Positions 13,837 through 46,771 are shown, counted from the stretch's first letter. The stretch: DNA of 47,303 bases from a bacterium (GCA_021789225.1 JAJYJQ010000003.1:1-47303); one strand, 5' to 3'. Made by a program: numbers and translations. Notes: generated by a model from the letters alone, not told the origin.

Positions 13837-16800
13837 CTAGAGTCCCTGCTCGTGCGCTTCAAGGCGCTCTTTCTCTTGCTTGATAGCAAGCAGCTGCGAG
13901 GGGTCGGAGGTGATGATCTGGTCTTCGGTGTACGACGCGACGATCTTTATGGCGACGTGTTTCAAGCCTGCGAAAAAGAGCCCCTCCCCCACTCCCGATT
14001 CGAGCAGCAGGTATTTTTCCTCATCGGTGAGGTTGAAGGTCTTTTGCAACACATCTACCGTGGTCGGCGATTGCTTCAAGAGGAGCTGGATGGATGAGTT
14101 GGTGAGGATCGGGCGGCCATAGGGCGAGCGCAAGAAGTCTTCCACATCTTGGGTGATGGTGCAGACGCCCAGGTAGTATTTGCGGCCGCGCTTGGCGAGG
14201 CTGTAGAGGAAAGAGGCGGTGTCTTCGGATTTCATCATCCACCACGCCTCGTCGATGATAAGGAGGCGCTTCTTGAGATTGCGGCGGATCGCGTTCCAGA
14301 TGTAGTGCGAAATGATGTACATAGCCACCGGCTTGAGCTCGTCTTCCATGTCACGCACGGAGAAGACGACGAACTGGCGGTTGATGTCGATGTTCGTCGC
14401 CTGGTTGATGAAGCCCGACCACGAGCCGCTCGTGTACTTGGCGAGGCGCTCCACCAAGGAATCGCTTCCTTCCATGCCGGTCAGCACGGCTTCAAAGTCG
14501 GAGAGCACCGGCGGCTCGATGTTCGAGAAATCGCTGTCGCCGGTGATGTCTTTGAGCGCGTACGTCTCGGTGACGGCGCGGTCGATGAGCGCGTCTTCTT
14601 CCGGCGTGAGGCCACCGAGCATGATGCGGAAGAGACCGACGAGCGTGATGATGTTGTTGCGCAAGAGGTCGCGCGGGTCCTCCCCTTCTTGCACGGCTGG
14701 CAGGTCGAAAGGGTTGATGTGGTGCTCCGAGGAGAGCGAGATGTTGAAGGAGCGCCCGTCGGTCGCGGCGGCGAGCTGCTCGTACTCACGCTCCGGGTCG
14801 ATGACGATGACGTCTGTGCCAAACATGAGCGAGCGCAGGATCTCGAGCTTGGTGGCGTATGAATTGTGCACAAACATACCGTTTTCGCCCGCGAGAAATA
14901 CCTCATCGTCCACAGTAAGGTCGTAGACGTAGCGGTCGCGGCGGTTTGGCGTCTTCTCGATGGAAACAATTGGATCCCAGAGCAGATCCGCGTTGGCGAG
15001 ATTTCGGAACATACGGATGATTGCCTCGATGCGTGGCAGTGCGGCAGCTGCGCGCTCGTATGCGTCGGTAATGAAGGCGCTTGTCGAACGCAGTAGCTCG
15101 TAGGAAGAGTTGTCGCGCTCACCGCGCAGCGACATGGAGAGATGTGGCGCGAAGCCGTTTGCCGGCAGCCCCATGCTGCGCAGCCCGTCTGCAACTATTG
15201 TCTTCAAAGTAGACACATCGCTCGGCGCGTCTATACCGGCGGCTGCGCAGATGGCGAGCGCATTTTCGGCACGTGGCGGCATTCCCTGTTTGACGGTGAA
15301 CCACGAGCTCCCGAGAGCTTCGATGAGCCGACGGTTCAGCTCGCGATTCTCGGCCGCTTTTGCAACTATGGACTCGATTGTCGGCAGGTCGGCGAGCGTC
15401 TCCATGAGCGGCCGCATGTTGCGGAAGCGTTGCACACGCGCTTCGAGCGCATCCGTAAGGCGCGCAAGGCGTTTGGGCGAGAAGTTATGCCCCTGGCGAA
15501 GAGCGGAAAACTCAGGCATGTTCCCGAGCTGCGATCCGAACACGTCGGCGAGCTCGTCGGCGAGCGGTGCGAGGCCAGGGATACTATCGACGTTCGTGTT
15601 GGCGGTCTCTTTCGCGAGAGAAGCGAGGGCGGCTTTTTTGCGTGCAGAGACGAATCCGATGTGTGCCTCGAACGCGCGGAGATACTCTTGTCCCGAAATG
15701 GACAGCTGCCAGAAGGTTCGCTTCCGGCCGGTGACGGCGTAGCGCTTCTCGCGTTTATGAACACGCGCGACGATGCCGAAGTAGTAGAGGAGGTACGCGA
15801 TACCGGAGAGAAGTTCGCGAGACTTGGATACAGCGGTAATCGCTGCGCCGTCTATACCGCCATCCCCTTCGAAGTACGCGCGCAGGTAGGCAGCAACCGT
15901 TTCTGTAGGTGCGGAAAAGAGTGTGCCAGGCACCGATTTTGTTGCCGAGTATCCATGAACTCCGAGCGCCCGCGCAAGCGTGATACACGGCACGTCGCCG
16001 CTCGCAACTGCGCGGTCTACGCGGTAGTGCCCCACGCCGAGTGTGCCAAACGCACGCTCGATATCGGCGACAACCTCGGCATCCGTATTTGTGACGATTG
16101 CGGCGCGGTCAGTCACGGTCCCTTCGGAGGAAAGGTAGCCCAACAGTGTGCCGAGCGCTTCGGAAAGCGGCAGGAGCGCGGGCAGGCGACTCTTGCCGCT
16201 CGCGGTGGTGAGTGTGAGCGAGTGCGCGAGAGTGTCATCGGGCGCGATGCCGAGCTGCGCGAGGAGCCCGAGAAGATAGCCGATCGGCATGCGCCGGCCT
16301 GCTTCGTAGTGGTAGAGATACGGGTCGAGTCTCGCATCGACGGGTGCGGCCGTGCGGGCTTTGCGCGCGCGCCGATAGGCGCGCGCGATTTCTTCCGCGC
16401 CGAGCACGTAGATACGCGGGTTCTTTGCAAACGCAGGAAGCGAGAGAAGGTTCAGCGCGCGCGTCGGCTCGGTCGGCCCGGATACTCGTCGCGGCAGCGG
16501 GACATTCTCACCCACGGCGATGTCCGCACTCTTTGCAGTCACGACGCGCCCTTCGCGCAGGACGAGCATGTTGTGGTCGGCGGTCGTGGTGATGGTGCGG
16601 CCGCTCTTAGTTTTAAACGTGTAGTAGGCATCGGGCGCGTCCTTCCGCGCGGCGACCGACACGGCGCTCCACCGCCCTTTCAGGTTTTTGTCGAAACTGA
16701 ACACCTCGATGCCCGGGTCGATAGCGCCTTCGAGATCATCGTCAACCGATATGCATCCGAGTCGTTTGATGGTTCGTTCTACGAGCGGGCCGATTTTTTC

Positions 16801-17655
16801 GAGGCGCACGTGCCCTCCTTCGCGCACAAGTACCGGCTCATCGTAGCGGAGCGACTTTCCAGATCCGGATTTTGCGAAAACGACGGAGTTATAGTTTTCG
16901 AGCGAGAAGCGGTCGAAGAGGATGAGCGAGGCGTTGTGGCGGTTGATGCCGTAGAGGATGCCGCGGTCGCTCGTGAGGTCGAAGGAGACGAACGGGAAGA
17001 TCGAGGAGAGCGGCTCGGAGTTGAGCTTCGACTCGACCTGGAGCTCGTCATTGCCGAGCGGCAGCGTCGTGCGGAAGCCCTGCTCTTGCTGGAAGAGCGC
17101 CGGCTTGGTGTAGACGAGCTGGGAATCGAGGATGCCGCGGATGTCACCTTCTATCTTATCGATCGCCTCTTTCGAGTCGCCGTAGAGCGTGAGGTAGAGG
17201 CCGACATCGAAGAGTTTTTCGCGCGCCTGCTGCAGGCGGTCGCGCAGCTCCTCGAGATTCTGGTATGCCGTATCGAGTTTCGGATCGCGCACGAGCCCTT
17301 TCGACTCGCGCTCGTTGATCTGGCTCTGCACCTCGGCGACCTTTTTCTGGAAATCGTGCAGCACCGACTCGGTGTCGATGGGGTGGATGAAAATCGCGAC
17401 GTCGAGCACCTGGTCGAGGTTGATGATGGGCGTAAACCAGCCATCGGAGAGGAAGGCTGGGTAGGAGATGGTGTAGAAGGTGCGCGCGAATTTCTCGCCC
17501 AGCTCCACCTCGCGTGCGCTGATCTTGAGCGCCGCCGGCGCGATCGTATCCACCAGGTCGAGCTTTCCTTGCGCGTAGATGTCTTTCGGAAGCACGGGCG
17601 TGATCGGGAGCGCCTCTTCTTGCTGTTTCTTGCCGAGAATATCGAGGAATGACAT
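13837..17655 (-). CDS. VirB4/TrbE-family T4SS ATPase precursor containing an intein (1272 aa; about 608 aa after splicing)
   Basis: The exteins give Walker A FAKSGSGK|SYATK and Walker B RLLIIDEAWWMM. A monoderm VirB4-like N-domain (FARTFYTISYP..L.DGW) and C-terminal motifs (RGRKYYLG..TITQ) are present. Confidence 0.85.
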   Translation of the reverse strand: MSFLDILGKKQQEEALPITPVLPKDIYAQGKLDLVDTIAPAALKISAREVELGEKFARTFYTISYPAFLSDGWFTPIINLDQVLDVAIFIHPIDTESVLHDFQKKVAEVQSQINERESKGLVRDPKLDTAYQNLEELRDRLQQAREKLFDVGLYLTLYGDSKEAIDKIEGDIRGILDSQLVYTKPALFQQEQGFRTTLPLGNDELQVESKLNSEPLSSIFPFVSFDLTSDRGILYGINRHNASLILFDRFSLENYNSVVFAKSGSGKSLRYDEPVLVREGGHVRLEKIGPLVERTIKRLGCISVDDDLEGAIDPGIEVFSFDKNLKGRWSAVSVAARKDAPDAYYTFKTKSGRTITTTADHNMLVLREGRVVTAKSADIAVGENVPLPRRVSGPTEPTRALNLLSLPAFAKNPRIYVLGAEEIARAYRRARKARTAAPVDARLDPYLYHYEAGRRMPIGYLLGLLAQLGIAPDDTLAHSLTLTTASGKSRLPALLPLSEALGTLLGYLSSEGTVTDRAAIVTNTDAEVVADIERAFGTLGVGHYRVDRAVASGDVPCITLARALGVHGYSATKSVPGTLFSAPTETVAAYLRAYFEGDGGIDGAAITAVSKSRELLSGIAYLLYYFGIVARVHKREKRYAVTGRKRTFWQLSISGQEYLRAFEAHIGFVSARKKAALASLAKETANTNVDSIPGLAPLADELADVFGSQLGNMPEFSALRQGHNFSPKRLARLTDALEARVQRFRNMRPLMETLADLPTIESIVAKAAENRELNRRLIEALGSSWFTVKQGMPPRAENALAICAAAGIDAPSDVSTLKTIVADGLRSMGLPANGFAPHLSMSLRGERDNSSYELLRSTSAFITDAYERAAAALPRIEAIIRMFRNLANADLLWDPIVSIEKTPNRRDRYVYDLTVDDEVFLAGENGMFVHNSYATKLEILRSLMFGTDVIVIDPEREYEQLAAATDGRSFNISLSSEHHINPFDLPAVQEGEDPRDLLRNNIITLVGLFRIMLGGLTPEEDALIDRAVTETYALKDITGDSDFSNIEPPVLSDFEAVLTGMEGSDSLVERLAKYTSGSWSGFINQATNIDINRQFVVFSVRDMEDELKPVAMYIISHYIWNAIRRNLKKRLLIIDEAWWMMKSEDTASFLYSLAKRGRKYYLGVCTITQDVEDFLRSPYGRPILTNSSIQLLLKQSPTTVDVLQKTFNLTDEEKYLLLESGVGEGLFFAGLKHVAIKIVASYTEDQIITSDPSQLLAIKQEKERLEAHEQGL
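14863..16854 (-). mobile_element. 664-aa intein with a LAGLIDADG homing endonuclease, inserted in the P-loop of the VirB4-like ATPase
   Basis: The N-terminal splice block is S-LRYDEPVLV (Ser1) and block B is TTTADHNMLV. The dodecapeptide motifs are LLGYLSSEG and YLRAYFEGDGG. The C-terminal blocks are YVYDLTVDDEVFLAGENGMFVHN followed by the +1 Ser. Removing the intein restores GSGKSY. Confidence 0.85.
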
Positions 17656-39880: not shown

Positions 39881-39886
39881 TATAAT
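39881..39886 (+). promoter_or_regulatory. TATAAT -10 box, 6 nt upstream of the xth ATG (leaderless configuration)
   Basis: ggcTATAATagcttcATG is nearly identical to the yraN upstream sequence TGgTATGATagcttcATG. Confidence 0.5.
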
Positions 39887-39892
39887 AGCTTC

Positions 39893-40657
39893 ATGAAAAT
39901 CGTCTCCTGGAATGTAAACGGTCTGCGCTCGGTGGCAAAAAACGGCTACTGGAAAGCCTTTCTGGAGGAAACCAAACCAGACATCTTCTGCCTGCAAGAG
40001 ACCAAAGCCTCGCCCGAGCAGCTTCCCGACGAGCTTCTCTCCCCTGCTGGCTATTCGGCATTTTTCTCCTCGGCCAAGGCGCGCAAAGGATACAGCGGCG
40101 TGGCGCTCTATTCGAAAATCGAGCCGCTCAATGTCATCTACGGCATGGGCATTGAGGAATTCGACCAAGAAGGCCGTATCGTCGGCGCCGAATACGACGA
40201 CTTTTGGCTTCTGAATGTGTACTTCCCCAACGGCGGCCAGGGCCCCGAGCGTCTCGACTACAAACTGCGCTTTTATGACGCCTTTCTCGCGTTCATCGAG
40301 GAGCTGCGCAAGCAAAAACCCGTTATTTTCTGCGGTGATGTGAACACGGCGCACGAGGAAATCGACCTTGCACATCCGCAGGAACACGAAGACAGCACCG
40401 GCTTCCTACCCGAAGAGCGCGCATGGATTGATGAGGTGCTGAACGCTGGGTATACCGACTCCTTCCGCCACCTCCATCCGCACCAATCTGCTGCCTATTC
40501 ATACTGGGATATGGTAACGCGCGCTCGCGACCGCAACGTGGGCTGGCGACTCGACTATTTCTTTGTGCCGAGCGAGCTTATGCGCCGCCTCAAAAAAGCC
40601 GAAATCCACACGCAGGTTTTCGGCTCCGACCACTGCCCCGTTTCGATAACCCTCTAA
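39893..40657 (+). CDS. xth: Exodeoxyribonuclease III (AP endonuclease)
   Basis: MKIVSWNVNGLRS, CLQETK, GYSGVA, NVYFPNG, GD.N.AH.EIDL and SDHCPV are present. Confidence 0.93.
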   Translation: MKIVSWNVNGLRSVAKNGYWKAFLEETKPDIFCLQETKASPEQLPDELLSPAGYSAFFSSAKARKGYSGVALYSKIEPLNVIYGMGIEEFDQEGRIVGAEYDDFWLLNVYFPNGGQGPERLDYKLRFYDAFLAFIEELRKQKPVIFCGDVNTAHEEIDLAHPQEHEDSTGFLPEERAWIDEVLNAGYTDSFRHLHPHQSAAYSYWDMVTRARDRNVGWRLDYFFVPSELMRRLKKAEIHTQVFGSDHCPVSITL

Positions 40658-40849
40658 AGGACACGTTATCCACAGGGATGTCCTTTACAGTGTCCTATAG
40701 AGCGCTATGATGAACCTCGGAAGGAGTTCTTTGCGAGCACCTTTTGTTCTTTCACAAATCTGTTCCTTACGAAGCAATAAGTTGTAATCCGTGCAACAGC
40801 AGGCCAACGACGGCGCGTATCGCCCATTCAAAACCAAAGGGCTGCGATT

Positions 40850-41110
40850 GTTACACGTGCAACCAAACGCTTCTCATCCATAAAAGTCGCCTTATCTCCA
40901 GGCGTGCCATCCAATCCAAGCCCAAAGCTCAATCAACTCGGCACACCAACCAAGGCGGCTTTTTGTTTTTCATACCAAGCTGCCGTTACACGTGAAAAGT
41001 AGCCCATGTGGTACGAGTTTCGTCCTACATGAGCGGATAATAGGGTTGTTACACGTGAAAAGAGAAAAACCGCCCCAAGTGGCGGTTTTTTATATGTTAC
41101 ACGTGAAAGC
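40850..41110. promoter_or_regulatory. Array of four GTTACACGTG(A/C)AA sites (12-bp near-palindrome TTACACGTGAAA) in a 450-bp non-coding gap
   Basis: Copies are at 40850-40862, 40985-40999, 41048-41062 and 41096-41110. A perfect DnaA box is at 40666-40674 in the same gap. Confidence 0.55.
41065..41091. terminator. Bidirectional rho-independent terminator
   Basis: aaaaaccgcc-ccaagt-ggcggtttttt has A and T tracts on both sides. It lies just downstream of the cca stop. Confidence 0.7.
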
Positions 41111-42573
41111 TACTGCACGTGGTGTTTTTGCAGTATTTTCCCTACCTCCTCCTCTTCTTTCTCCTCTCGTTTTTGCTTTCCTGCCTCGCCAAGGGCGCGG
41201 AGCTCGTCGTCAGAAAGGGTCAAAAGCTCTCCGGTTCGGGTATCCAAATATTCCTCAGTGTTTCGGGAAGGATCCTCGAGAACTTCTTCGAGGAGGGCGT
41301 TCAGCGTCCAGCCGATGCGCGGCCCTGGTTGCACGTGGAACGTCTCCATAAGGTGGTTTCCATTTGTCTTGAGCATGGCGACGGAAATCGGGTCGCGAAG
41401 AGCTTGCTCCACCATCGCCTTATATTTCCGGAAGCGAAATGGCTGTTCTTTTGGCCGGCCGGTGCCTATGCGGTCGCAAATGCGGACATTGAGCAAATCC
41501 CAGATGTTTTCCTCGCCGACGTTGCGAACCATGCGGCGCACGGCCGAGAGGGTAATGAGGTCTGGATCGGAGAAAAACATGTGCCAGCGCACGAGTTTGG
41601 TGACACGCTCGATAGTTTCACGTGGAAAGTGAAGGTCATTCAGCGCTTTTTTGGTAATACGAGCGCTCACGACCTCGTGGCCGTGGAAAGTCCAGTCTTT
41701 TTTCTCGTCCGACCAGCGGCGCGCATCGGTTTTTCCGATGTCGTGGAAAAGAGCCGCGAGGCGCACGTCCAAATCCCATCCCTTGTCAGCGGCGTGCTGG
41801 ACGGAGCGCAAGGAATGCTCGAACACGTCGAAAGAGTGCGCCTGATTCTGGCCAACGCCGACACTGCGTGCCAGATCCGGCACGATATACGCAAGGATGC
41901 CGAGGCGTGCGGCAAGCGCGAGCGCCGTGAGTGGGCGAGGGGAGGTGAGGATGCGGATAAGCTCGTCGCGGATGCGCTCTTTCGAAATATGGCCAAGGTT
42001 AGCGGCTTTTCCCTGTATGGCCGCGGCAGTATTCGTGTCGAGTGCGAAATCGAGCTCGGCCACAAAACGGAGCGCGCGCATAAGCCGAAGCGCGTCTTCC
42101 TCGAAGCGTTCTTCCGGGCTGCCGACGGTTTGGAGAATGCCAGCCTCGATGTCCTTTTGTCCTTTATAAGGGTCAATGAGGTGTCCTTTAGACTCGTCGT
42201 ACGCGATAGCGTTCATGGTGAAATCGCGCCGGGCGAGATCTTCCTCGATAGAGTCGCCGAAGGTTACGGAATCCGGCCGGCGTTTGTCGCCGTAGGTGGA
42301 TTCAGTGCGATAGGGGGTCACCTCGACGACTTTCAGGGTTTCATCATCGGTTTCATTGACGACGCCCACGGTGCCGAAGTCGTTCGTGTAGAAGGTTTCC
42401 GGGAAAAGAGCTTGAATTTGCTCGGGTTTTGCGTTGGTGGTGACGTCCCAGTCTTTGGGGGTGCGGTTCAAGAGAAGGTCGCGAACGCACCCGCCGACCA
42501 AATACGCCTCAAAACCAGCTTGCCGCAGAGTCTCCGTGACCGAGCGTATTTCACGTGGAACCTTGTGGCGCAT
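41110..42573 (-). CDS. cca: CCA-adding enzyme / poly(A) polymerase family with an HD domain
   Basis: 487 aa. YLVGG.VRD.LL...PKDWD..T and the HD motif (ALFHDIGK) are present. This is consistent with the tRNA genes here lacking encoded CCA. Confidence 0.9.
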   Translation of the reverse strand: MRHKVPREIRSVTETLRQAGFEAYLVGGCVRDLLLNRTPKDWDVTTNAKPEQIQALFPETFYTNDFGTVGVVNETDDETLKVVEVTPYRTESTYGDKRRPDSVTFGDSIEEDLARRDFTMNAIAYDESKGHLIDPYKGQKDIEAGILQTVGSPEERFEEDALRLMRALRFVAELDFALDTNTAAAIQGKAANLGHISKERIRDELIRILTSPRPLTALALAARLGILAYIVPDLARSVGVGQNQAHSFDVFEHSLRSVQHAADKGWDLDVRLAALFHDIGKTDARRWSDEKKDWTFHGHEVVSARITKKALNDLHFPRETIERVTKLVRWHMFFSDPDLITLSAVRRMVRNVGEENIWDLLNVRICDRIGTGRPKEQPFRFRKYKAMVEQALRDPISVAMLKTNGNHLMETFHVQPGPRIGWTLNALLEEVLEDPSRNTEEYLDTRTGELLTLSDDELRALGEAGKQKREEKEEEEVGKILQKHHVQ

Positions 42574-42626
42574 GGCTGCATAATAGCACGCAATTATGAA
42601 ACGAACTGTGATATAGTGTTAACTAC

Positions 42627-43295
42627 ATGCAGAAGAAGGTCCTACAAAAAGCCATGGCAGTACGGCTTAGAAAAGCGGGATATACATACCGTGAAATACT
42701 CGAGAAGGTGCCCGTATCAAGGAGCTCACTTTCTGTGTGGCTGCGCGATGCCCCACTTACTGACGCTGAGAAAACAGTCCTGAAGAAACGGCGTAACGAC
42801 CGGATATCAACCGGAAGGATTCGCGCGGCCGCGTCGCTTCGTAAAGCACGGCTTCATCGTGAAGGAAGTCTGCGCAAAAAGGCGGAAGAGACATTTCGCA
42901 CCTATCGACACGACGAACTCTTTAGAGTCGGGATTTCTCTCTACTGGGCCGAGGGTGCGAAGCGGGGAAATTCGTTTAGTTTCGTAAACTCAGATCCAGA
43001 TATGGTGGTGCTTATGATTGCGTGGATGGAACGTTTTTTACACATACCGAGAAAAGATATACGTGCGCGGCTCTATATCCATAGACCCTATGCACACGAG
43101 CATCTTGAAACCTTTTGGTCTGAGAAAACGGGTATTAATGAAGGTGATTTCAGACAAACTGTGTACAAGCCGACCGGGCTCCTCGTTAAAAAACGCCCTG
43201 ATTATAAAGGCTGTCTCCGTATAGAGGCTGGGGGAGTCGTCGCGCTGCGCACGTATCAGTTCTGGCAACGAATGTTGCTTGCTGAGTTGCAGTAA
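42627..43295 (+). CDS. HTH plus single-motif LAGLIDADG-like protein (paralogue 1)
   Basis: 222 aa. The N-terminal HTH is LRKAGYTYREILEKVPVSRSSLSVWL. The LAGLIDADG-type motif is FRVGISLYWAEGAKRGNSFSFVNSDPDMVVLMIAWMERF. It is a paralogue of 45222..45911. Confidence 0.7.
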   Translation: MQKKVLQKAMAVRLRKAGYTYREILEKVPVSRSSLSVWLRDAPLTDAEKTVLKKRRNDRISTGRIRAAASLRKARLHREGSLRKKAEETFRTYRHDELFRVGISLYWAEGAKRGNSFSFVNSDPDMVVLMIAWMERFLHIPRKDIRARLYIHRPYAHEHLETFWSEKTGINEGDFRQTVYKPTGLLVKKRPDYKGCLRIEAGGVVALRTYQFWQRMLLAELQ

Positions 43296-43335
43296 TAACA
43301 GCAGAAGACCAAACGTGCTATTGTTTCCTCACTGC

Positions 43336-43408
43336 GCGCCCGTAGCTCAAAGGATAGAGCACTTGGCTTCGGACCAAGGGGTTGTGGGTTCGAGTCCTGC
43401 CGGGCGCA
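43336..43408 (+). tRNA. tRNA-Arg (anticodon TCG), no encoded CCA
   Basis: The cloverleaf was built by hand: acceptor GCGCCCG/CGGGCGC, D arm GCTC/GAGC, anticodon arm CTTGG-CTTCGGA-CCAAG, and T loop TTCGAGT. Confidence 0.85.
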
Positions 43409-43505
43409 CAAAATTCCATGAAAATATAAAGCGGCCACGTGCGAGATGAAGCAAACTGTGCACAAACGATAGGGAATAAAGGTGCGCTGGTGCTATTATG
43501 CGTGC

Positions 43506-44939
43506 ATGTCAGGCGCTGCTCCAGAAAAGCAAACTCCTCCTTTGGTACAGCCGGAGAAACATGCGCCCGCAAAGGCGCCTGAGGCACGCAATTCGCGAGC
43601 TGCTGAACTGAGGCTTAGTCCTGAAAACGAGCGTTTGTGGGATCGGCTGAGCGAACGCGGACGTGAACTCTTCGAACGAATGTCCGTGCATACAGGCTCT
43701 TTTTCCGAGACTTTTGGAAAAGCCGGCCTCGCGTTTAACCGATTCATCGGTGAGCGTTACGAAAAGAAGGCAGTTCATTTGCAGAAGAAGGTGGATGAAT
43801 CCAACGTCCTCGTCGAATCTCTGCGGGAAGCAAAGCAAGAGCTTGAGGCCGACTTGGAGGAGATGCGGCACGATGGGTCTCCGGGAGCAGAACTCATCCA
43901 GCTGCAATCGAAAGTGTTCGATCGCAAGATCGAGGACGCGCTCAAGAAGCGCGATCGCGTCCAAAGTAAGATGGAGGCTCAGGTAAAACATAGAGACCTC
44001 TTTAACGCACGGCGCGACGCGATCGCGGACAAGCTCATTCACGAATATGAGCAGAAGCTCTCTCCGATGGAGCGGCGGCTCAAGTCGATGCGGACGCGCG
44101 GCGATGAGGTGGCGCGCCTTGCGGATGACGCAAAAGCGCACCTGGATCAACAGGAAGCCAGACTCGTCGTGGATAAAGAGCAGAAATTGGAGCAGCGACA
44201 GGCGAAGTGGCGCCAAGCGCAGTTTTCAGAAGCAGATATCCGTGACCTGAGTCGGCCGTTTGAGCGAGCAATACATGAAAACCGGGATTGGATACATGAG
44301 CAGCGGGCGAAAATATCGAAGCTGCAGCGTCGCCAAGAAGAGCGGATTGCGCGCGCTGAGCAAACGGCGAATCCGTGGCGCGACCGCCGAGACGCGATCG
44401 CGCGCGCCAAGAGCAAGAATCCGGCAGAGGTGAAGGTGCCGGAGCGCACGCGCGTGCCGGTGGAGGAATCGAAGCCGCCGCGTATCGAGCACCACCCGCG
44501 GCATGAAGAGACGGTGCTTGCGCACACAGAGCCTGCGGGAGAGCAGGAGCCTGTGGCAGAGGGCTGGCCAGGAGATATTCCGGTCCAAGAGCACGAGCCG
44601 GCAGAAACCGCACCTGCGCCTGCGGAAAGCTCGGATGAGGAAGCTCCCGAAGAAAACGAAACGCACGAGACAGGGAATGAGAGCGTTTCGTTTGACCAGT
44701 CCTTCTCGCAATGGACCGCGTTCTTGGGGCTGCCGAATGCAGATCCTGCTAGAAAGAGCCTGCAGAAGTTCTTTGCCGACAGGGGGATGAAGCTCGGTAG
44801 CTCGGCGCAGATTAAGCGGGAAGACTTTAAACGGATGCTCAGAGGACACTATAGGAGCTTGGGCGGCGATCAACTCAAACAAGCGTTCGAGCCCGTGATA
44901 GAGAAGTTCGTTGATGAATTTTTAAAAGAGAAGCCATGA
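43506..44939 (+). CDS. Charged coiled-coil protein (hypothetical, 477 aa)
   Basis: The extended -10 TGCTATTAT (43491-43499) lies 6 nt before the ATG at 43506. The sequence is rich in Glu, Arg, Lys and Gln in heptad-like stretches. Confidence 0.6.
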   Translation: MSGAAPEKQTPPLVQPEKHAPAKAPEARNSRAAELRLSPENERLWDRLSERGRELFERMSVHTGSFSETFGKAGLAFNRFIGERYEKKAVHLQKKVDESNVLVESLREAKQELEADLEEMRHDGSPGAELIQLQSKVFDRKIEDALKKRDRVQSKMEAQVKHRDLFNARRDAIADKLIHEYEQKLSPMERRLKSMRTRGDEVARLADDAKAHLDQQEARLVVDKEQKLEQRQAKWRQAQFSEADIRDLSRPFERAIHENRDWIHEQRAKISKLQRRQEERIARAEQTANPWRDRRDAIARAKSKNPAEVKVPERTRVPVEESKPPRIEHHPRHEETVLAHTEPAGEQEPVAEGWPGDIPVQEHEPAETAPAPAESSDEEAPEENETHETGNESVSFDQSFSQWTAFLGLPNADPARKSLQKFFADRGMKLGSSAQIKREDFKRMLRGHYRSLGGDQLKQAFEPVIEKFVDEFLKEKP

Positions 44940-45154
44940 CGAGCATTCAAGAAATCAAAGCGCAGACAGAAGCTGACGTGGTCGCGTCGGCCATTGCAAA
45001 GCTTGAGGAAATGGACCGGCAGAGCGAAGAGGACGCGGCGGAGATCGAGCGGCTCGCGAGCGAGCTCGACGAGGTTGAAAAGAAGGCCAAAGAGGAGCTG
45101 ACGGCGCTCATGCTCGAAGAAGCAGCCTATCTAGCAGAAGAGGATTCGGATTAA
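44936..45154 (+). CDS. Small acidic coiled-coil protein (72 aa)
   Basis: It has an ATGA overlap with the preceding gene. The sequence is helical and acidic (EEDAAEIERLASELDEVEKKAKEEL). Confidence 0.5.
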   Translation: MTSIQEIKAQTEADVVASAIAKLEEMDRQSEEDAAEIERLASELDEVEKKAKEELTALMLEEAAYLAEEDSD

Positions 45155-45221
45155 GAACCCTTCCCAAAGGGAAGCCGGCTTGTTTTTTGAAACTGAACTC
45201 CCGGTGCTATAATTGTGCAGA

Positions 45222-45911
45222 ATGCGAAAAGATAAGGAAAGAGCCATTTTGTTGCGTAAAGCTGGGAACAGTTATCGCGCCATCAGTGCGGAGCTCCACG
45301 TGCCCTTGAGCACGCTCTCGAACTGGTTTCGCGAGGAGGCGTGGTCAGAAGAGGTGGCGCGCAAGCTGCGCTCGCAGGCGCAGGCGGCGCACACGGCGCG
45401 TCTGCTCGACCTCAATAAGACGCGCGGGGCGCGGCTCCGAGAAGCGTACGAGCAGGCGCGCGAGGAGGCGAAAACGGAGCTGGCGCAGCTTCAGTACGAT
45501 CCGCTTTTTATCGCGGGAGTGATGCTGTACTGGGGAGAAGGGGACAAGGGCTCAAAACATCATGTGAAACTGAGCAATACGGACCCGAAGCTCGTGCGGC
45601 TCTATGTGCGGTTTCTGACGGACGCGTGCGGTATTCCGCGGCACAAAATAAAGGCGCATCTGCTGCTCCATCCGGATCTGGAAGAAAAGGTTTGCCGGGC
45701 GTACTGGGAGAAAGCGGCAGGGATTCCGTGGAAAAACTTCACGAAAAGCGTTCGCATACAAGGCCGGCATGAGACGCTCCGGCTCAAATGGGGTGTATGC
45801 ATCGTGACGGTCTCAAGCGCGTATTTCAAACAGAAGGTGCTCGCGTGGCTTACATTGCTGCCAGAAGCGTTGCTTGATAGGCAGGAATATGCGAATATGA
45901 CGGAGCAGTAG
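45222..45911 (+). CDS. HTH plus single-motif LAGLIDADG-like protein (paralogue 2)
   Basis: The ATG at 45222 is preceded by the extended -10 TGCTATAAT (45205-45213). The HTH is LRKAGNSYRAISAELHVPLSTLSNWF and the motif is FIAGVMLYWGEGDKGSKHHVKLSNTDPKLVRLYVRFLTD. Confidence 0.7.
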   Translation: MRKDKERAILLRKAGNSYRAISAELHVPLSTLSNWFREEAWSEEVARKLRSQAQAAHTARLLDLNKTRGARLREAYEQAREEAKTELAQLQYDPLFIAGVMLYWGEGDKGSKHHVKLSNTDPKLVRLYVRFLTDACGIPRHKIKAHLLLHPDLEEKVCRAYWEKAAGIPWKNFTKSVRIQGRHETLRLKWGVCIVTVSSAYFKQKVLAWLTLLPEALLDRQEYANMTEQ

Positions 45912-45917
45912 CAACTT

Positions 45918-45988
45918 GCGGATATAGTTTAGTGGTAGAACGGCTCCTTGCCAAGGAGCAGGCGGGAGTTCGATTCTCCCTATCCGCA
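45918..45988 (+). tRNA. tRNA-Gly (anticodon GCC), no encoded CCA
   Basis: Acceptor GCGGATA/TATCCGC, anticodon arm GCTCC-TTGCCAA-GGAGC, and T arm GGGAG-TTCGATT-CTCCC. Confidence 0.88.
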
Positions 45989-46046
45989 CAAAATTAAGGG
46001 GAACGACACGATGTGCCGAGGAGATTAGGAAGGAGGGTGTGAGTGT

Positions 46047-46089
46047 TGTGGATTTCAACTGTGGATAAAGGTGTTAATTCTGGGGATAA
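46047..46089. promoter_or_regulatory. Cluster of three DnaA-box-like 9-mers
   Basis: TGTGGATTT is at 46047-46055. TGTGGATAA at 46060-46068 is a perfect reverse complement of TTATCCACA. TGGGGATAA is at 46081-46089. Confidence 0.45.
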
Positions 46090-46167
46090 AGGACAGTTGG
46101 GCGAATTGGCCGTTAGTGCGAGTTTCTTTTAAATAGTGAATAAATAAGCCGTTTTTCTCTCGGCCAG

Positions 46168-46176
46168 TGGTATGAT
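46168..46176 (+). promoter_or_regulatory. Extended -10 TGGTATGAT, 6 nt upstream of the yraN ATG
   Basis: TGgTATGATagcttcATG. Confidence 0.5.
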
Positions 46177-46182
46177 AGCTTC

Positions 46183-46581
46183 ATGAACCTTACAGGTGCG
46201 TCTCGCAAAGAGGTGGGGAACATCGGTGAGCGCGCCGCTGCCGAGTATCTTCGCCGCAATGGCTTCCGTATCCTCGACCGGAATGTGGCTAGAAAGACCG
46301 GAGAGCTCGATATTGTGGCGCAAAAAGGTGCAGTCGTGCACGTGGTAGAGGTGAAAAGTATCGCGTGCGATGAATTTCCGGGCACCCCGGCTCGCGGACG
46401 CTCTGTCTTTGACCCGGCGGAGAACCTGCATCCTATGAAGATACGGAAGGTAGTGCGCACGGGCGAGTGGTATGTGGCTGAAAAGGGCTGGGAAGGGGAA
46501 TGGCAGGTGGATGGGGTGGTCGTGTGGCTGCGCCGGAGAGACGGCGTGGCGCGTGTCCGATACATTCCGCACATTGTCTGA
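46183..46581 (+). CDS. yraN: YraN-family (UPF0102) endonuclease-like protein
   Basis: 132 aa. G...E..A..YL...G..IL.RN.....GELDIVA......V.VEVK is present. Confidence 0.85.
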   Translation: MNLTGASRKEVGNIGERAAAEYLRRNGFRILDRNVARKTGELDIVAQKGAVVHVVEVKSIACDEFPGTPARGRSVFDPAENLHPMKIRKVVRTGEWYVAEKGWEGEWQVDGVVVWLRRRDGVARVRYIPHIV

Positions 46582-46771
46582 TAGGATAGAGGTGCGAGCG
46601 AATAAAAGTGGTAGCGTTAGTACTTTTATGTGTCTTGTTCGCGGGGTGTAGTATACCGGTAAGCGAAGCTTTCTGCCTGCGCTCGCCTCGGGCATGTAAC
46701 GCCCGCGGGCGTTACATGCCTCTCGGCTCGCTTGGCAGTAGTACGCGTCCTGAGGGAATTCAAAACTAAGT

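What the first reader, a model, noticed from the sequence alone, without database searches (positions are those of the whole stretch)
42627..45988. Two diverged HTH plus LAGLIDADG-like paralogues, each placed directly 5' of a tRNA gene
ORFs 42627-43295 and 45222-45911 are clear paralogues. They share an HTH (LRKAG.(T/S)YR.I...) and a LYW.EG.K...(F/L)(V/S)N(S/T)DP...V single LAGLIDADG-type motif. They also share the segments (F/Y)W(S/E)(E/K).(T/A)GI and (Y/K)(K/W)G(C/V). Each ends just before a tRNA: 40 nt before tRNA-Arg(TCG) and 6 nt before tRNA-Gly(GCC). Both tRNAs are followed by GCACAAAATT.

Their motif has the same style as the endonuclease inside the VirB4 intein (..SEGTV...IVTNTDAEVV..IERAF). 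The window therefore holds three LAGLIDADG-type modules. Free-standing single-motif proteins with an added HTH, coupled to tRNA genes, could be several things:
- homing endonucleases that use tRNA genes as landing or cleavage sites
- domesticated maturase-like factors acting on tRNA transcripts
- co-transcribed regulators

None of these roles is established, as far as I know.
Basis: partly seen in the sequence, partly recalled or inferred. Interest (0 to 1): 0.62.

Follow-up and report, generated by a model that had tools for sequence, protein, structure and literature searches.

The report
Selfish-looking genes glued to tRNA genes
The two paralogous genes belong to a large, unnamed protein superfamily whose branches each sit directly in front of one particular tRNA gene, in ultra-small bacteria, actinomycetes and giant-phage-like contigs; they come and go together with that tRNA gene like a mobile cassette, which points to a new kind of tRNA-gene-targeted homing element.

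Summary
ORF A (42627-43295) and ORF B (45222-45911) are paralogues (32% identity, E 2e-21). Each ends just before a same-strand tRNA gene.

Of 185 copies of their C-terminal domain in 165 fetched loci, 168 are followed by a same-strand tRNA within 150 nt, and 55 of these end inside the tRNA. tRNA identity maps onto the protein tree with the minimum 8 changes, against a mean of 76 when labels are shuffled. The clades are Gly-GCC (B), Arg-TCG (A), Gln-TTG (including two-module proteins in three actinomycete genera), Arg-TCT, Gly-TCC, Val-GAC, Ile-TAT and Lys-CTT. Viral contigs carry copies inside tRNA arrays.

Every clade is patchy. A relative with 90-95% identical flanks lacks ORF A. It has 156 nt with a different tRNA-Arg allele where the window has an 879-nt ORF A plus tRNA-Arg cassette.

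The proteins are under purifying selection (dN/dS about 0.06-0.14), and Y103, E106 and G107 are invariant.

LAGLIDADG membership is not shown. There is no Pfam hit and no significant fold match, only a profile-profile match of 47-54% probability to the first half of intein endonucleases.

Best reading (about 0.55): free-standing homing-endonuclease-like genes that spread together with an adjacent tRNA allele. No activity has been tested.

The parts
42564..43442 (+). ORF A plus tRNA-Arg cassette (879 nt). A close relative has 156 unrelated nt at this place, carrying another tRNA-Arg(TCG) allele.
   Evidence: blastn of the window against L166: 39881-42563 matches at 90.1% and 43443-46585 at 95.0%, with no similarity in between. 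Soil runs X2 and X3 show zero depth over 42688-43320 and a contig joint from 42563 to 43443.
42596..42610 (+). Left copy of an imperfect 15-nt direct repeat (ATGAAACGAACTGTG) at the left edge of the cassette. It contains the GAAC..TG element seen upstream of many family promoters.
   Evidence: the repeat finder family D3. The empty site in L166 has a single copy, ATGAAATAAACTGTG, just after its tRNA-Arg. Two-copy short repeats can be chance.
42609..42617 (+). Extended -10 promoter-like box TGaTATAGT, 9 nt before the ATG of ORF A. This implies a leaderless or near-leaderless mRNA.
   Evidence: Read directly from the sequence. A-type and other paralogues have the same arrangement. No transcript data exist.
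42627..43295 (+). ORF A (222 aa), a member of the Arg-TCG clade. Layout: HTH about residues 8-40, a long helix, then the C-domain with LYWAEGAK and NSDP.
   Evidence: It lies in the Arg-TCG clade (n=45, support 92). Forty metagenome orthologues all precede tRNA-Arg(TCG).
43316..43324 (+). Promoter-like box TGcTATTGT, 11 nt before tRNA-Arg. The tRNA may therefore also be transcribed on its own.
   Evidence: Sequence. It matches the -10 boxes 8-11 nt upstream of unlinked tRNA genes in relatives and this genome's GTGCTATWAT promoter type (repeat I1).
43336..43409 (+). tRNA-Arg(TCG), the allele that travels with ORF A.
   Evidence: ARAGORN. The allele is near-identical to A-linked alleles in L086, L117 and L126. 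It is unlike the allele of the close relative L166.
43446..43460 (+). Right copy of the 15-nt direct repeat (ATGAAGCAAACTGTG), just outside the right edge of the cassette.
   Evidence: Homology with L166 resumes at 43443.
45195..45213 (+). Conserved promoter-like element GAACTCCCGGTGCTATAAT. The TATAAT ends 8 nt before the ATG of ORF B.
   Evidence: It is the only match in the window to GAAC-N(4-10)-TRNTAWAMT. The same cGAACyccc..TGnTATAMT element lies upstream of B orthologues in about 80 species, 7-9 nt or about 40 nt before the ATG.
45222..45911 (+). ORF B (229 aa), a member of the Gly-GCC clade. Layout: HTH residues 3-36, a single helix 40-90, and the alpha/beta C-domain 94-218 with LYWGEGDK and NTDP.
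   Evidence: AlphaFold2 gives pLDDT 91.9, and 92.4 with pTM 0.85 for the C-domain alone. Gly-GCC clade n=84, support 99.
45918..45989 (+). tRNA-Gly(GCC), 6 nt after ORF B.
   Evidence: ARAGORN. The same pairing is found in 77 of 78 judgeable B-selected loci.
45986..45995 (+). GCACAAAATT, the tRNA 3' end plus trailer. The same 10-mer also lies at 43406-43415 after tRNA-Arg.
   Evidence: 2 matches against 0.07 expected. Its function is unknown.

Best explanation
ORF A and ORF B are two members of a large, unnamed superfamily of small modular proteins. Each has an N-terminal homeodomain-like HTH, a roughly 50-residue helix, and a roughly 130-residue alpha/beta domain.

I read them as free-standing homing-endonuclease-like selfish genes that are specialised on tRNA genes. 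The proposed steps are:
1. Each clade recognises the locus of one tRNA species.
2. The gene sits immediately 5' of a copy of that tRNA gene, often reading into it, so that ORF and tRNA form one cassette with a leaderless promoter.
3. When DNA from a cassette-bearing cell meets a genome without it, the protein (probably a dimer whose invariant E106 binds metal) breaks the resident tRNA locus.
4. Repair copies in the ORF together with its own tRNA allele.

Shown here: the adjacency, the mapping of clade to tRNA, patchy occupancy, empty and filled sites, allele replacement, purifying selection, and presence in tRNA arrays on viral contigs.

Inferred only: nuclease activity, dimerisation, the actual target, and the direction of events (gain versus loss).
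For: 1. Adjacency.
- 168 of 185 domain copies have a same-strand tRNA within 150 nt downstream. Ten are cut by contig ends, and two of the seven 'exceptions' have a truncated tRNA.
- 55 ORFs end inside the tRNA. The usual stop is formed by tRNA positions 8-10, or ends at position 15.

2. Clade to tRNA mapping.
- 8 label changes on the tree, the minimum for 9 labels. 300 shuffles gave a mean of 76 and a minimum of 68.
- The Gln-TTG clade (support 98) joins actinomycete copies (66-71% GC) with low-GC metagenome copies. Three actinomycete genera have the ORF in front of tRNA-Gln(TTG).

3. Patchiness.
- In loci selected for B: Arg-TCG 2/57, Gly-TCC 2/19, Val-GAC 4/16.
- In loci selected for A: Gly-GCC only 1/15.
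- The same syntenic cluster occurs without A but with B, with A but without B, and with both.

4. Empty and filled sites.
- tRNA-Leu(GAG) and tRNA-Val(GAC) are 2-61 nt apart (2-23 nt in eight of the nine empty loci) when the site is empty, and 751-1096 nt apart when it is filled.
- Window versus L166: 879 nt against 156 nt, with a different tRNA-Arg allele and flanks 90-95% identical. The window allele resembles other A-linked alleles.

5. The proteins are functional.
- dN/dS is 0.06-0.14.
- Y103, E106, G107, W162 and G191 are invariant in 177 of 177 copies.

6. Architecture fits modular homing endonucleases.
- The HTH is confirmed.
- Two-module fusions exist in actinomycetes, as in single-chain LAGLIDADG enzymes.
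- A remote match to the LAGLIDADG helix, hairpin and next helix of intein endonucleases has P 1-2e-4.

7. Viral contigs. Twelve distinct IMG/VR loci carry intact copies, mostly inside tRNA arrays.

8. Precedent. T4 SegB is a homing endonuclease inside a tRNA gene cluster. It recognises a tRNA T-psi-C motif and drives inheritance of the neighbouring tRNA genes (PMC2330249).
Against: - No nuclease family is recognised. Pfam, NCBIfam, PHROGs and PDB sequence searches see only the HTH.
- Foldseek gives no hit at E <= 1e-3 for a confident model. The best TM-scores are 0.34-0.44, to generic alpha/beta sandwiches.
- The strand hairpin that forms the DNA-binding saddle in LAGLIDADG enzymes is nearly absent in the model.
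- B-type copies look vertically inherited over long distances, with strong purifying selection and a conserved promoter. That is also what a host-beneficial gene would show.
- No decayed copies were obvious, although the classical homing cycle predicts them.
- There are no hits in sequenced cultured phages or in plasmids.
- tRNA alleles of both sequence types occur in both the linked and the free state, so no 'immune allele' rule is visible.
- No transcript or biochemical data exist.
Confidence: 0.55

Rival explanations
1. Dedicated host factor. Each paralogue is a domesticated DNA- or RNA-binding protein that serves its neighbouring tRNA gene, for example as a promoter-proximal regulator or as a processing or folding helper of that tRNA precursor. 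It stays adjacent because it acts in cis or is co-transcribed.
For: - Strong purifying selection and invariant residues.
- B orthologues in at least 262 species share a conserved promoter element that could be an operator for the HTH.
- One third of ORFs overlap the tRNA, so a shared precursor transcript is likely.
- tRNA promoter-like boxes lie inside or right after the ORF 3' end.
- WhiA shows that LAGLIDADG-plus-HTH proteins can become regulators (established knowledge).
Against: - Most genomes manage the same tRNA without the protein. Gly-GCC is occupied in only 1 of 15 A-selected loci, and Arg-TCG in only 2 of 57 B-selected loci.
- Close relatives differ by a whole ORF-plus-tRNA cassette.
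- A clade tied to one tRNA spans two phyla.
- Copies sit in tRNA arrays on viral contigs.
- A separate regulator for each single tRNA gene has no precedent in genomes of about 0.8 Mb.
Confidence: 0.22
2. Insertion element of a different mechanism. The protein is a site-specific recombinase or transposase-like enzyme with a new catalytic domain. It inserts the ORF (with or without the tRNA) at the 5' edge of tRNA genes, rather than a homing nuclease that relies on repair by homologous recombination.
For: - The HTH is of the IS630 / Tc1 / Sleeping Beauty / resolvase type.
- The 3' junction is precise, at tRNA position +1.
- An imperfect 15-nt direct repeat brackets the window cassette, and the empty site has a single copy.
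- An invariant tyrosine, Y103, could act as a nucleophile.
Against: - There are no terminal inverted repeats and no recognisable DDE, serine or tyrosine recombinase domain.
- The resident tRNA allele is replaced rather than duplicated, which fits gene conversion better than insertion.
- The 15-mer repeat may be chance or part of a promoter.
Confidence: 0.13
3. The adjacency is inherited synteny without functional meaning: ordinary hypothetical genes that happen to lie in a conserved tRNA cluster.
For: The Arg-TCG, Gly-GCC, Pro-TGG, Gly-TCC cluster is syntenic across many Paceibacteria.
Against: - The ORF-to-tRNA pairing survives every rearrangement of the neighbourhood.
- It recurs for 9 different tRNAs with clade-specific mapping.
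- It recurs in actinomycetes and in viral contigs.
Confidence: 0.02

Closest known systems
Phage T4 SegB (GIY-YIG free-standing homing endonuclease in the tRNA gene cluster; PMC2330249)
   Same: - A free-standing small gene embedded among tRNA genes.
- SegB recognises a tRNA-derived motif in DNA.
- Its spread carries the neighbouring tRNA genes along and displaces the recipient's tRNA region markers. This matches the ORF-plus-tRNA allele replacement seen here, and the copies inside tRNA arrays on viral contigs.
   Different: - The catalytic domain is unrelated: no GIY-YIG hit.
- The family here is mainly chromosomal in bacteria.
- It has diversified into clades, each tied to one tRNA species.
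- It abuts or overlaps the 5' end of the tRNA gene.
- Its activity is untested.
LAGLIDADG_3 endonuclease domains of inteins (PI-PkoII 2cw7, V-ATPase inteins 7qsu and 7qst, and the intein in this window)
   Same: - A helix ending in an invariant acidic residue followed by G (YWGEG against YLSSEG), then a strand and an N-x-D-P/E-x-hydrophobic helix, in the same order.
- hhalign gives 47-54% probability.
- Single-module and tandem two-module versions both exist, as with one-motif and two-motif LAGLIDADG enzymes.
   Different: - No curated LAGLIDADG model is reached.
- The motif helix is two residues longer.
- The first strand hairpin is vestigial.
- A helix and a long loop are inserted between the third and fourth strands.
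- No fold match was found in the PDB.
- DNA recognition is probably delegated to the added HTH.
WhiA (degenerate LAGLIDADG scaffold plus HTH, a bacterial transcription factor)
   Same: It combines an HTH with a LAGLIDADG-derived scaffold in a chromosomal bacterial protein. It is a model for the domestication rival.
   Different: - WhiA has two LAGLIDADG domains and a C-terminal HTH.
- It has lost the catalytic acidic residues.
- It is universal in its clades and is not linked to tRNA genes.
- No WhiA Pfam model matches here.
Modular free-standing homing endonucleases such as I-TevI (a catalytic domain tethered by a linker to an HTH DNA-binding domain)
   Same: A two-part design, with a small catalytic module and a separate sequence-reading HTH joined by a long linker.
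   Different: The domain order is reversed, the catalytic fold is different, and the linker here is a single 50-residue helix.
tRNA-gene-targeted mobile elements (tyrosine-integrase islands at tRNA 3' ends; Ty3 and Dictyostelium TRE elements upstream of tRNA genes)
   Same: They use tRNA genes as conserved, safe landing marks.
   Different: - Those elements carry integrases or reverse transcriptases.
- They do not bring or replace the tRNA gene as a roughly 0.9-kb single-ORF cassette.

Membership tests
LAGLIDADG homing endonucleases (Pfam LAGLIDADG_1/2/3) | Match to a curated family model at or above its gathering score | tested here: not met
   - ORF A and ORF B give no LAGLIDADG hit at E <= 1.
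- None was reported among 34 B-type members at E <= 5.
- It is not among the 25 most frequently hit families for 150 superfamily representatives.
- The best results are sub-threshold PF14528 hits in two actinomycete members: E 0.027 and 0.082, at 13.6-15.2 bits against a cut-off of 22.5.
- Positive control: the window's intein scores E 3.6e-20.
LAGLIDADG homing endonucleases | Motif helix ending in a conserved acidic residue followed by glycine, placed at the start of the domain | tested here: met
   The helix at residues 94-106 ends in E106-G107, which is invariant in 177 of 177 copies. G99 is present in 172 of 177. The helix is two residues longer than the canonical nine-residue motif.
LAGLIDADG homing endonucleases | Alpha-beta-beta-alpha-beta-beta-alpha fold with a four-stranded DNA-binding saddle | tested here: inconclusive
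   - The model is confident (pLDDT 92.4, pTM 0.85).
- The order of elements is helix, vestigial strand, strand, helix, strand, inserted helix, strand, helix.
- Foldseek against the PDB finds no LAGLIDADG protein in the top 50, and nothing at E <= 1e-3.
- Foldseek against BFVD gives weak hits to intein-bearing and LAGLIDADG proteins (TM 0.36-0.44, E 0.03-0.5).
LAGLIDADG homing endonucleases | Remote homology detectable by profile-profile comparison | tested here: inconclusive
   - hhalign of the 177-sequence profile against the N-terminal subdomain of intein endonucleases: 54% probability, P 1.2e-4, score 28.5.
- Controls: reversed template 10.2; the maximum over 60 column shuffles was 15.8.
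- With templates from solved structures only: 47% probability, P 2e-4.
- Against the C-terminal subdomain there is no match.
- Against the single intein sequence the probability is 1.4%.
LAGLIDADG homing endonucleases | Site-specific DNA cleavage that depends on magnesium | not testable with these tools
   This needs purified protein and substrates carrying the empty site.
Free-standing homing endonuclease genes (functional class) | Sporadic presence or absence among related genomes at a fixed site | tested here: met
   - Occupancy is given.
- The Leu-GAG / Val-GAC site is seen both empty and filled.
- All combinations of A and B occur at the Arg-TCG / Gly-GCC site except 'neither'.
- The window differs from L166 at this site.
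Free-standing homing endonuclease genes (functional class) | Flanking markers are converted together with the gene | tested here: met
   In the window, the resident-type tRNA-Arg allele seen in L166 is replaced by the allele found next to other A-type ORFs. The flanks are 90-95% identical. This is a single near-isogenic pair, and the direction of the event is inferred.
Free-standing homing endonuclease genes (functional class) | The encoded protein cleaves the allele that lacks the gene | not testable with these tools
   No biochemical data exist.
HTH_23 / homeodomain-like HTH (PF13384) | Pfam gathering score of 24.6 bits | tested here: met
   ORF B scores 31.5 bits. ORF A scores 23.5 bits, just below the cut-off. 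92 of 150 superfamily representatives hit this model at E <= 1.
GIY-YIG (SegB-like) and HNH homing endonucleases | Match to the family model | tested here: not met
   No such Pfam or PHROG hit covers the C-domain.
WhiA | WhiA_N, LAGLIDADG_WhiA and HTH_WhiA domains | tested here: not met
   No WhiA model appears in any Pfam scan.

The most novel reading that the evidence does not exclude
This is a new class of mobile genetic unit, the 'tRNA-gene cassette'. A one-gene element carries a previously unrecognised nuclease domain, either a stripped-down LAGLIDADG derivative or a new fold, aimed by an HTH. It destroys the resident copy of one essential single-copy tRNA gene and replaces it with its own linked allele. 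The ORF overlaps the tRNA's 5' end and promoter, which would make it hard to delete. The element has radiated into at least nine tRNA-specific lineages across Patescibacteria, Actinomycetota and giant phages. If true, it would also be a source of compact nucleases with natural, clade-specific targets.
Probability: 0.4. Interest if true: 0.9.

Novelty: new variant of a known kind. Interest (0 to 1): 0.8.

Why it matters
- Scale: more than 5000 protein clusters at 50% identity share a domain that no public family library names. Its genomic behaviour is unusually regular: one protein clade, one tRNA gene.
- tRNA gene evolution: if the homing reading is right, single-copy tRNA genes in reduced genomes are being overwritten horizontally by selfish cassettes. 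That bears on how tRNA genes evolve and on how they are used as phylogenetic or integration markers.
- Enzymology: it would add a new catalytic module to the homing endonuclease repertoire.
- Range: it would extend to bacterial chromosomes a phenomenon described so far for T-even phage tRNA regions.
- Alternative: if the proteins instead serve the adjacent tRNA, that would be a new layer of gene-specific tRNA control.
- Testability: the clade-to-tRNA map makes either reading directly testable with a handful of purified proteins and synthetic sites.

Tried and rejected
- Sequence libraries. Pfam, NCBIfam, PHROGs and PDB sequence searches were run on the two ORFs, on 34 orthologues, on 150 representatives and on 6 viral copies. 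Only HTH models hit.
- Fold searches. Foldseek against the PDB, for the full length and for the C-domain, gave nothing significant. Foldseek against BFVD gave only weak hints.
- hhalign against a single intein sequence: 1.4% probability.
- A richer LAGLIDADG_3 profile. Searching homologues of the intein endonuclease gave only 4 hits, so a small alignment of PDB and intein sequences was used instead.
- The superfamily-wide alignment A5 had no stretch conserved enough for a collection scan, so the metagenome scan was run with the A-type alignment A6 instead.
- The sigma-70 consensus scan missed the plus-strand promoters because their -35 elements are poor. They were read by eye across loci instead.
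- Cultured phage and plasmid collections gave no match.
- RNA evidence. No RNA runs hold the window.
- The first dN/dS script timed out and was rewritten.
- An 'immune tRNA allele' rule, linked against free Arg-TCG sequence types, was considered. Both types occur in both states, so it was dropped.
- Literature searches found no description of this family.

Full report
**1. The observation**

ORF A (42627-43295, 222 aa) and ORF B (45222-45911, 229 aa) are open on the + strand. They are paralogues: BLASTP gives 32% identity over 177 residues, E 2e-21.

ARAGORN places tRNA-Arg(TCG) at 43336-43409 and tRNA-Gly(GCC) at 45918-45989. These lie 40 and 6 nt after the respective stop codons, on the same strand.

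Both proteins start with a homeodomain-like HTH. PF13384 scores 31.5 bits for B and 23.5 bits for A, against a cut-off of 24.6. The 10-mer GCACAAAATT follows both tRNAs and occurs nowhere else in the window, against 0.07 expected.

**2. What the proteins look like**

AlphaFold2 with 34 homologues gives a confident model of B (pLDDT 91.9). It has:
- a three-helix HTH (residues 3-36);
- one uninterrupted helix (40-90);
- an alpha/beta domain (94-218).

The C-domain alone, modelled with 42 sequences that include other paralogues, reaches pLDDT 92.4 and pTM 0.85.

Across 177 copies from all clades, Y103, E106, G107, W162 and G191 never change. G99, L102, W104, K109, N119, D121, F173 and W209 are nearly constant.

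For pairs 75-97% identical, dN/dS is about 0.06 (Gly-GCC and Arg-TCG clades), 0.11 (Arg-TCT) and 0.14 (Gln-TTG). These are working proteins, not decaying reading frames.

**3. Is it LAGLIDADG?**

By every curated test, no:
- No LAGLIDADG model is hit by A, by B or by 34 orthologues, and none ranks among the 25 most frequently hit families for 150 representatives.
- The intein in the same window scores E 3.6e-20 against PF14528, so the method does work here.
- NCBIfam, PHROGs and PDB sequences give nothing beyond the HTH.
- Foldseek finds no PDB structure at E <= 1e-3. The best TM-scores (0.34-0.42) are to OmpA-like, YjgF and IspF sandwiches.

Weaker signals point the other way:
- Two actinomycete members give sub-threshold PF14528 hits at exactly the motif region.
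- BFVD returns low-significance matches to intein-bearing and LAGLIDADG proteins.
- A profile of 177 C-domains aligns with a small alignment of the N-terminal endonuclease subdomain of inteins at 54% probability, P 1.2e-4 and score 28.5. The template holds the window intein, P0273, 7qsu, 7qst and PI-PkoII.
- In the controls, the reversed template scores 10.2 and the maximum over 60 column shuffles is 15.8.
- With solved structures only as template, the result is 47% probability and P 2e-4.

I conclude that a remote LAGLIDADG origin is plausible, at roughly even odds. The domain is not a member of any described family, and it departs from the canonical fold in two ways: the first hairpin is vestigial, and an extra helix sits between strands 3 and 4.

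**4. The tRNA link is general**

*B-type.* A pattern scan of one genome per GTDB species found 262 species with a B-type gene. The best 80 loci cover Kaiser-, Yonath-, Yanofsky-, Nomura-, Wolfe-, Gribaldo- and Kerfeldbacteria. In 77 of the 78 loci that can be judged, the gene is followed by tRNA-Gly(GCC) on the same strand. The rest of the neighbourhood is rearranged many times.

*Extra paralogues in the same loci.* Each sits in front of another tRNA: Gly-TCC, Arg-TCG, Val-GAC, Ile-TAT or Lys-CTT.

*A-type.* A metagenome scan with A-type sequences gave 40 orthologues, all in front of tRNA-Arg(TCG). More distant relatives lie in front of tRNA-Gln(TTG) (19), tRNA-Arg(TCT) (11) and tRNA-Val(TAC) (1).

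*Counts.* Of 185 domain copies, 168 have a same-strand tRNA within 150 nt, 10 are cut by contig ends and 7 do not. Of those 7:
- two have a truncated tRNA that ARAGORN missed;
- two have the tRNA directly upstream instead.

*Distances.* Fifty-five ORFs end inside the tRNA gene. The commonest cases use tRNA positions 8-10 (TAG) as the stop codon, or a stop that ends at position 15. Another 50 end 0-10 nt before the tRNA.

**5. Protein clade equals tRNA identity**

On a tree of 177 C-domains, the nine tRNA labels need 8 changes, the theoretical minimum. Shuffled labels need 76 on average and never fewer than 68 in 300 trials.

| Clade | Copies | Support |
|---|---|---|
| Gly-GCC | 84 | 99 |
| Arg-TCG | 45 | 92 |
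| Gln-TTG | 24 | 98 |
| Val-GAC | 4 | 100 |
| Ile-TAT | 2 | 97 |
| Gly-TCC | 2 | 99 |

The exhaustive representative search counts 5011 clusters at 50% identity with this domain. Among them are tandem two-module proteins of cultured actinomycetes, all annotated as hypothetical. The species are Actinomadura flavalba, Allonocardiopsis opalescens and Actinocorallia lasiicapitis.

In all three, the gene lies 40-118 nt upstream of tRNA-Gln(TTG), in front of two genes with GlmU-type (NTP_transferase/Hexapep) and Prs-type (Pribosyltran) domains. These copies (66-71% GC) branch as sister to low-GC metagenome copies that are also linked to tRNA-Gln(TTG). So the tRNA specificity is kept across phyla.

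**6. The genes come and go, and take the tRNA with them**

*Patchy occupancy*:

| tRNA gene | Occupied, in loci selected for B | Occupied, in loci selected for A |
|---|---|---|
| Gly-GCC | 77/78 | 1/15 |
| Arg-TCG | 2/57 | 38/39 |
| Gly-TCC | 2/19 | 0/7 |
| Val-GAC | 4/16 | not seen |
| Ile-TAT | 2/8 | not seen |
| Pro-TGG | 0/40 | 0/15 |

*One syntenic cluster in three states.* The cluster Arg-TCG, Gly-GCC, Pro-TGG, Gly-TCC occurs in three forms:
- with B only (for example L002);
- with A only, where tRNA-Arg and tRNA-Gly are about 45 nt apart (a dozen loci);
- with both (the window, L032/L111 and L042).

*Leu-GAG / Val-GAC site.* In Yanofskybacteria-type loci, tRNA-Leu(GAG) and tRNA-Val(GAC) are 2-61 nt apart (2-23 nt in eight of nine loci) when the site is empty, and 751-1096 nt apart when it is filled. 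The ORF then reads straight into tRNA-Val.

*A near-isogenic pair.* The most telling case is contig DASVYW010000042.1 (L166), whose B protein is 97% identical to the window's.
- It matches the window at 90.1% on the left (39881-42563) and at 95.0% on the right (43443-46585).
- Between these flanks it has 156 nt, holding a promoter and a tRNA-Arg(TCG) that starts GCCCCGGTGGTG.
- The window has 879 unrelated nt there: a promoter, ORF A, and a tRNA-Arg(TCG) that starts GCGCCCGTAGCTC.
- Contigs from two soil metagenomes show the same ORF A-less form.
- The window's tRNA allele is nearly identical to alleles that follow A-type ORFs elsewhere (L086, L117, L126).

The ORF and its tRNA therefore behave as one cassette that replaces the resident tRNA gene.

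An imperfect 15-nt direct repeat brackets the cassette, and the empty site has one copy. This may be a recombination scar, part of a promoter, or chance.

**7. Expression signals (read from sequence only)**

- Nearly every copy has a TATAAT-like box, often with an upstream TG, ending 7-9 nt before the ATG. This implies leaderless messages.
- B orthologues also share a cGAACyccc..TG element just upstream. It could be an operator for the HTH.
- Unlinked tRNA genes in these organisms have a -10 box 8-11 nt before position +1.
- Behind an ORF, such a box lies either in a 30-50-nt spacer or inside the last codons of the ORF. The conserved C-terminal YYENI of many B proteins is encoded by TATTATGAGAATAT.
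- Where the ORF overlaps the tRNA, cutting by RNase P would remove the stop codon. That might keep protein levels low, but this is speculation.
- No RNA data exist.

**8. Viral contigs**

IMG/VR holds 14 loci (12 distinct) with intact copies. All carry GCMLYW[GA]EGxK and an N-x-D/E motif, NSD in most. Many lie on contigs of 94-527 kb with long tRNA arrays.

Six have a same-strand tRNA from -15 to +98 nt downstream. Most of the others have one just upstream. Sequenced cultured phages and plasmids have none.

**9. Interpretation**

The following features together are what a free-standing homing endonuclease gene looks like:
- an HTH tethered to a small conserved domain with an invariant acidic residue at a helix end;
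- occasional tandem fusion;
- clade-specific attachment to one conserved target gene;
- patchy occupancy and clean empty sites;
- replacement of the flanking marker;
- presence in phage tRNA arrays.

The closest precedent is T4 SegB. It sits in the tRNA cluster, recognises a tRNA T-psi-C motif, and drives inheritance of itself and the surrounding tRNA genes (PMC2330249).

I give this reading about 0.55. Its weak points are:
- there is no recognisable nuclease fold;
- there is no biochemistry;
- no decayed copies were seen;
- B-type genes show long vertical persistence and tight conservation. That would equally suit a domesticated, tRNA-specific host factor (about 0.22) or an element that uses another insertion chemistry (about 0.13).

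**10. Novelty**

No library model and no paper found here describes the domain or its tRNA linkage. The kind of element, a homing gene among tRNA genes, is known from T-even phages.

Four things are new:
- the catalytic module;
- the chromosomal setting in two bacterial phyla;
- the strict rule of one clade for one tRNA;
- the ORF-plus-tRNA cassette.

Noticed in passing
window 42571-42589 (minus strand) and 43490-43508 (plus strand); also 45204-45213 and 43315-43324: This genome seems to use an extended -10 promoter, GTGCTATWAT, placed 6-9 nt before the ATG. It is seen at the CCA-adding enzyme gene, the 477/485-aa gene and ORF B. That suggests leaderless mRNAs are the rule. The inverted repeat I1 is simply two such divergent promoters.
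   Followed up: partly
L002-L082, 70 nt upstream of the tRNA-Arg(TCG) and tRNA-Gly(TCC) genes: Unlinked tRNA genes in these Paceibacteria carry a -10-like box (TACTAT or TATTCT) only about 8 nt before tRNA position +1. Many tRNAs may therefore be transcribed with almost no 5' leader, which recalls the leaderless tRNAs of organisms that lack RNase P.
   Followed up: no
window 46586-46768: The 183 nt directly 5' of tRNA-Pro(TGG) are replaced by 33 unrelated nt in the close relative L166 and in runs X2 and X3. The flanks are 95-96% identical. This is another variable segment at the 5' edge of a tRNA gene, here without an ORF of the family.
   Followed up: no
window 43482-45154: A coiled-coil ORF (485 aa from the GTG, probably 477 aa from the ATG at 43506) and an acidic 72-aa ORF lie between the two modules. 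L166 has them too (423 and 72 aa). They are absent from L002 and most relatives, where tRNA-Arg lies 63 nt before ORF B. Several relatives (L013, L014, L024-L026, L029) have about 1.25 kb at that place.
   Followed up: partly
window 13837-17655, minus strand: A VirB4/TraG-like ATPase ORF of 1272 aa is interrupted by an intein with a genuine LAGLIDADG_3 endonuclease (PF14528 E 3.6e-20, PF14890 E 3.2e-16). It was used here as the positive control.
   Followed up: partly
L131 1860-1932 and L160 328-401: In two family copies the tRNA lies immediately upstream of the ORF instead of downstream. L139 and L160 form their own well-supported clade with no downstream tRNA, possibly a lineage with another target or orientation.
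   Followed up: partly
L169/L170, L172, L178 and L180 (IMG/VR contigs of 41-476 kb): Large viral contigs carry arrays of 8-13 tRNA genes within 6 kb, with a family member wedged between two tRNA genes. Whether these are huge phages or misbinned cellular DNA was not checked.
   Followed up: no
L105 2370-2906 and 2944-3204: A B-type copy behind an A-type module appears to be split into two reading frames and has no detectable tRNA-Gly after it. It is the only candidate decayed copy seen.
   Followed up: no
L166 9663-11009: Downstream of the shared region, where the window ends, the close relative carries a Fic-domain gene.
   Followed up: no
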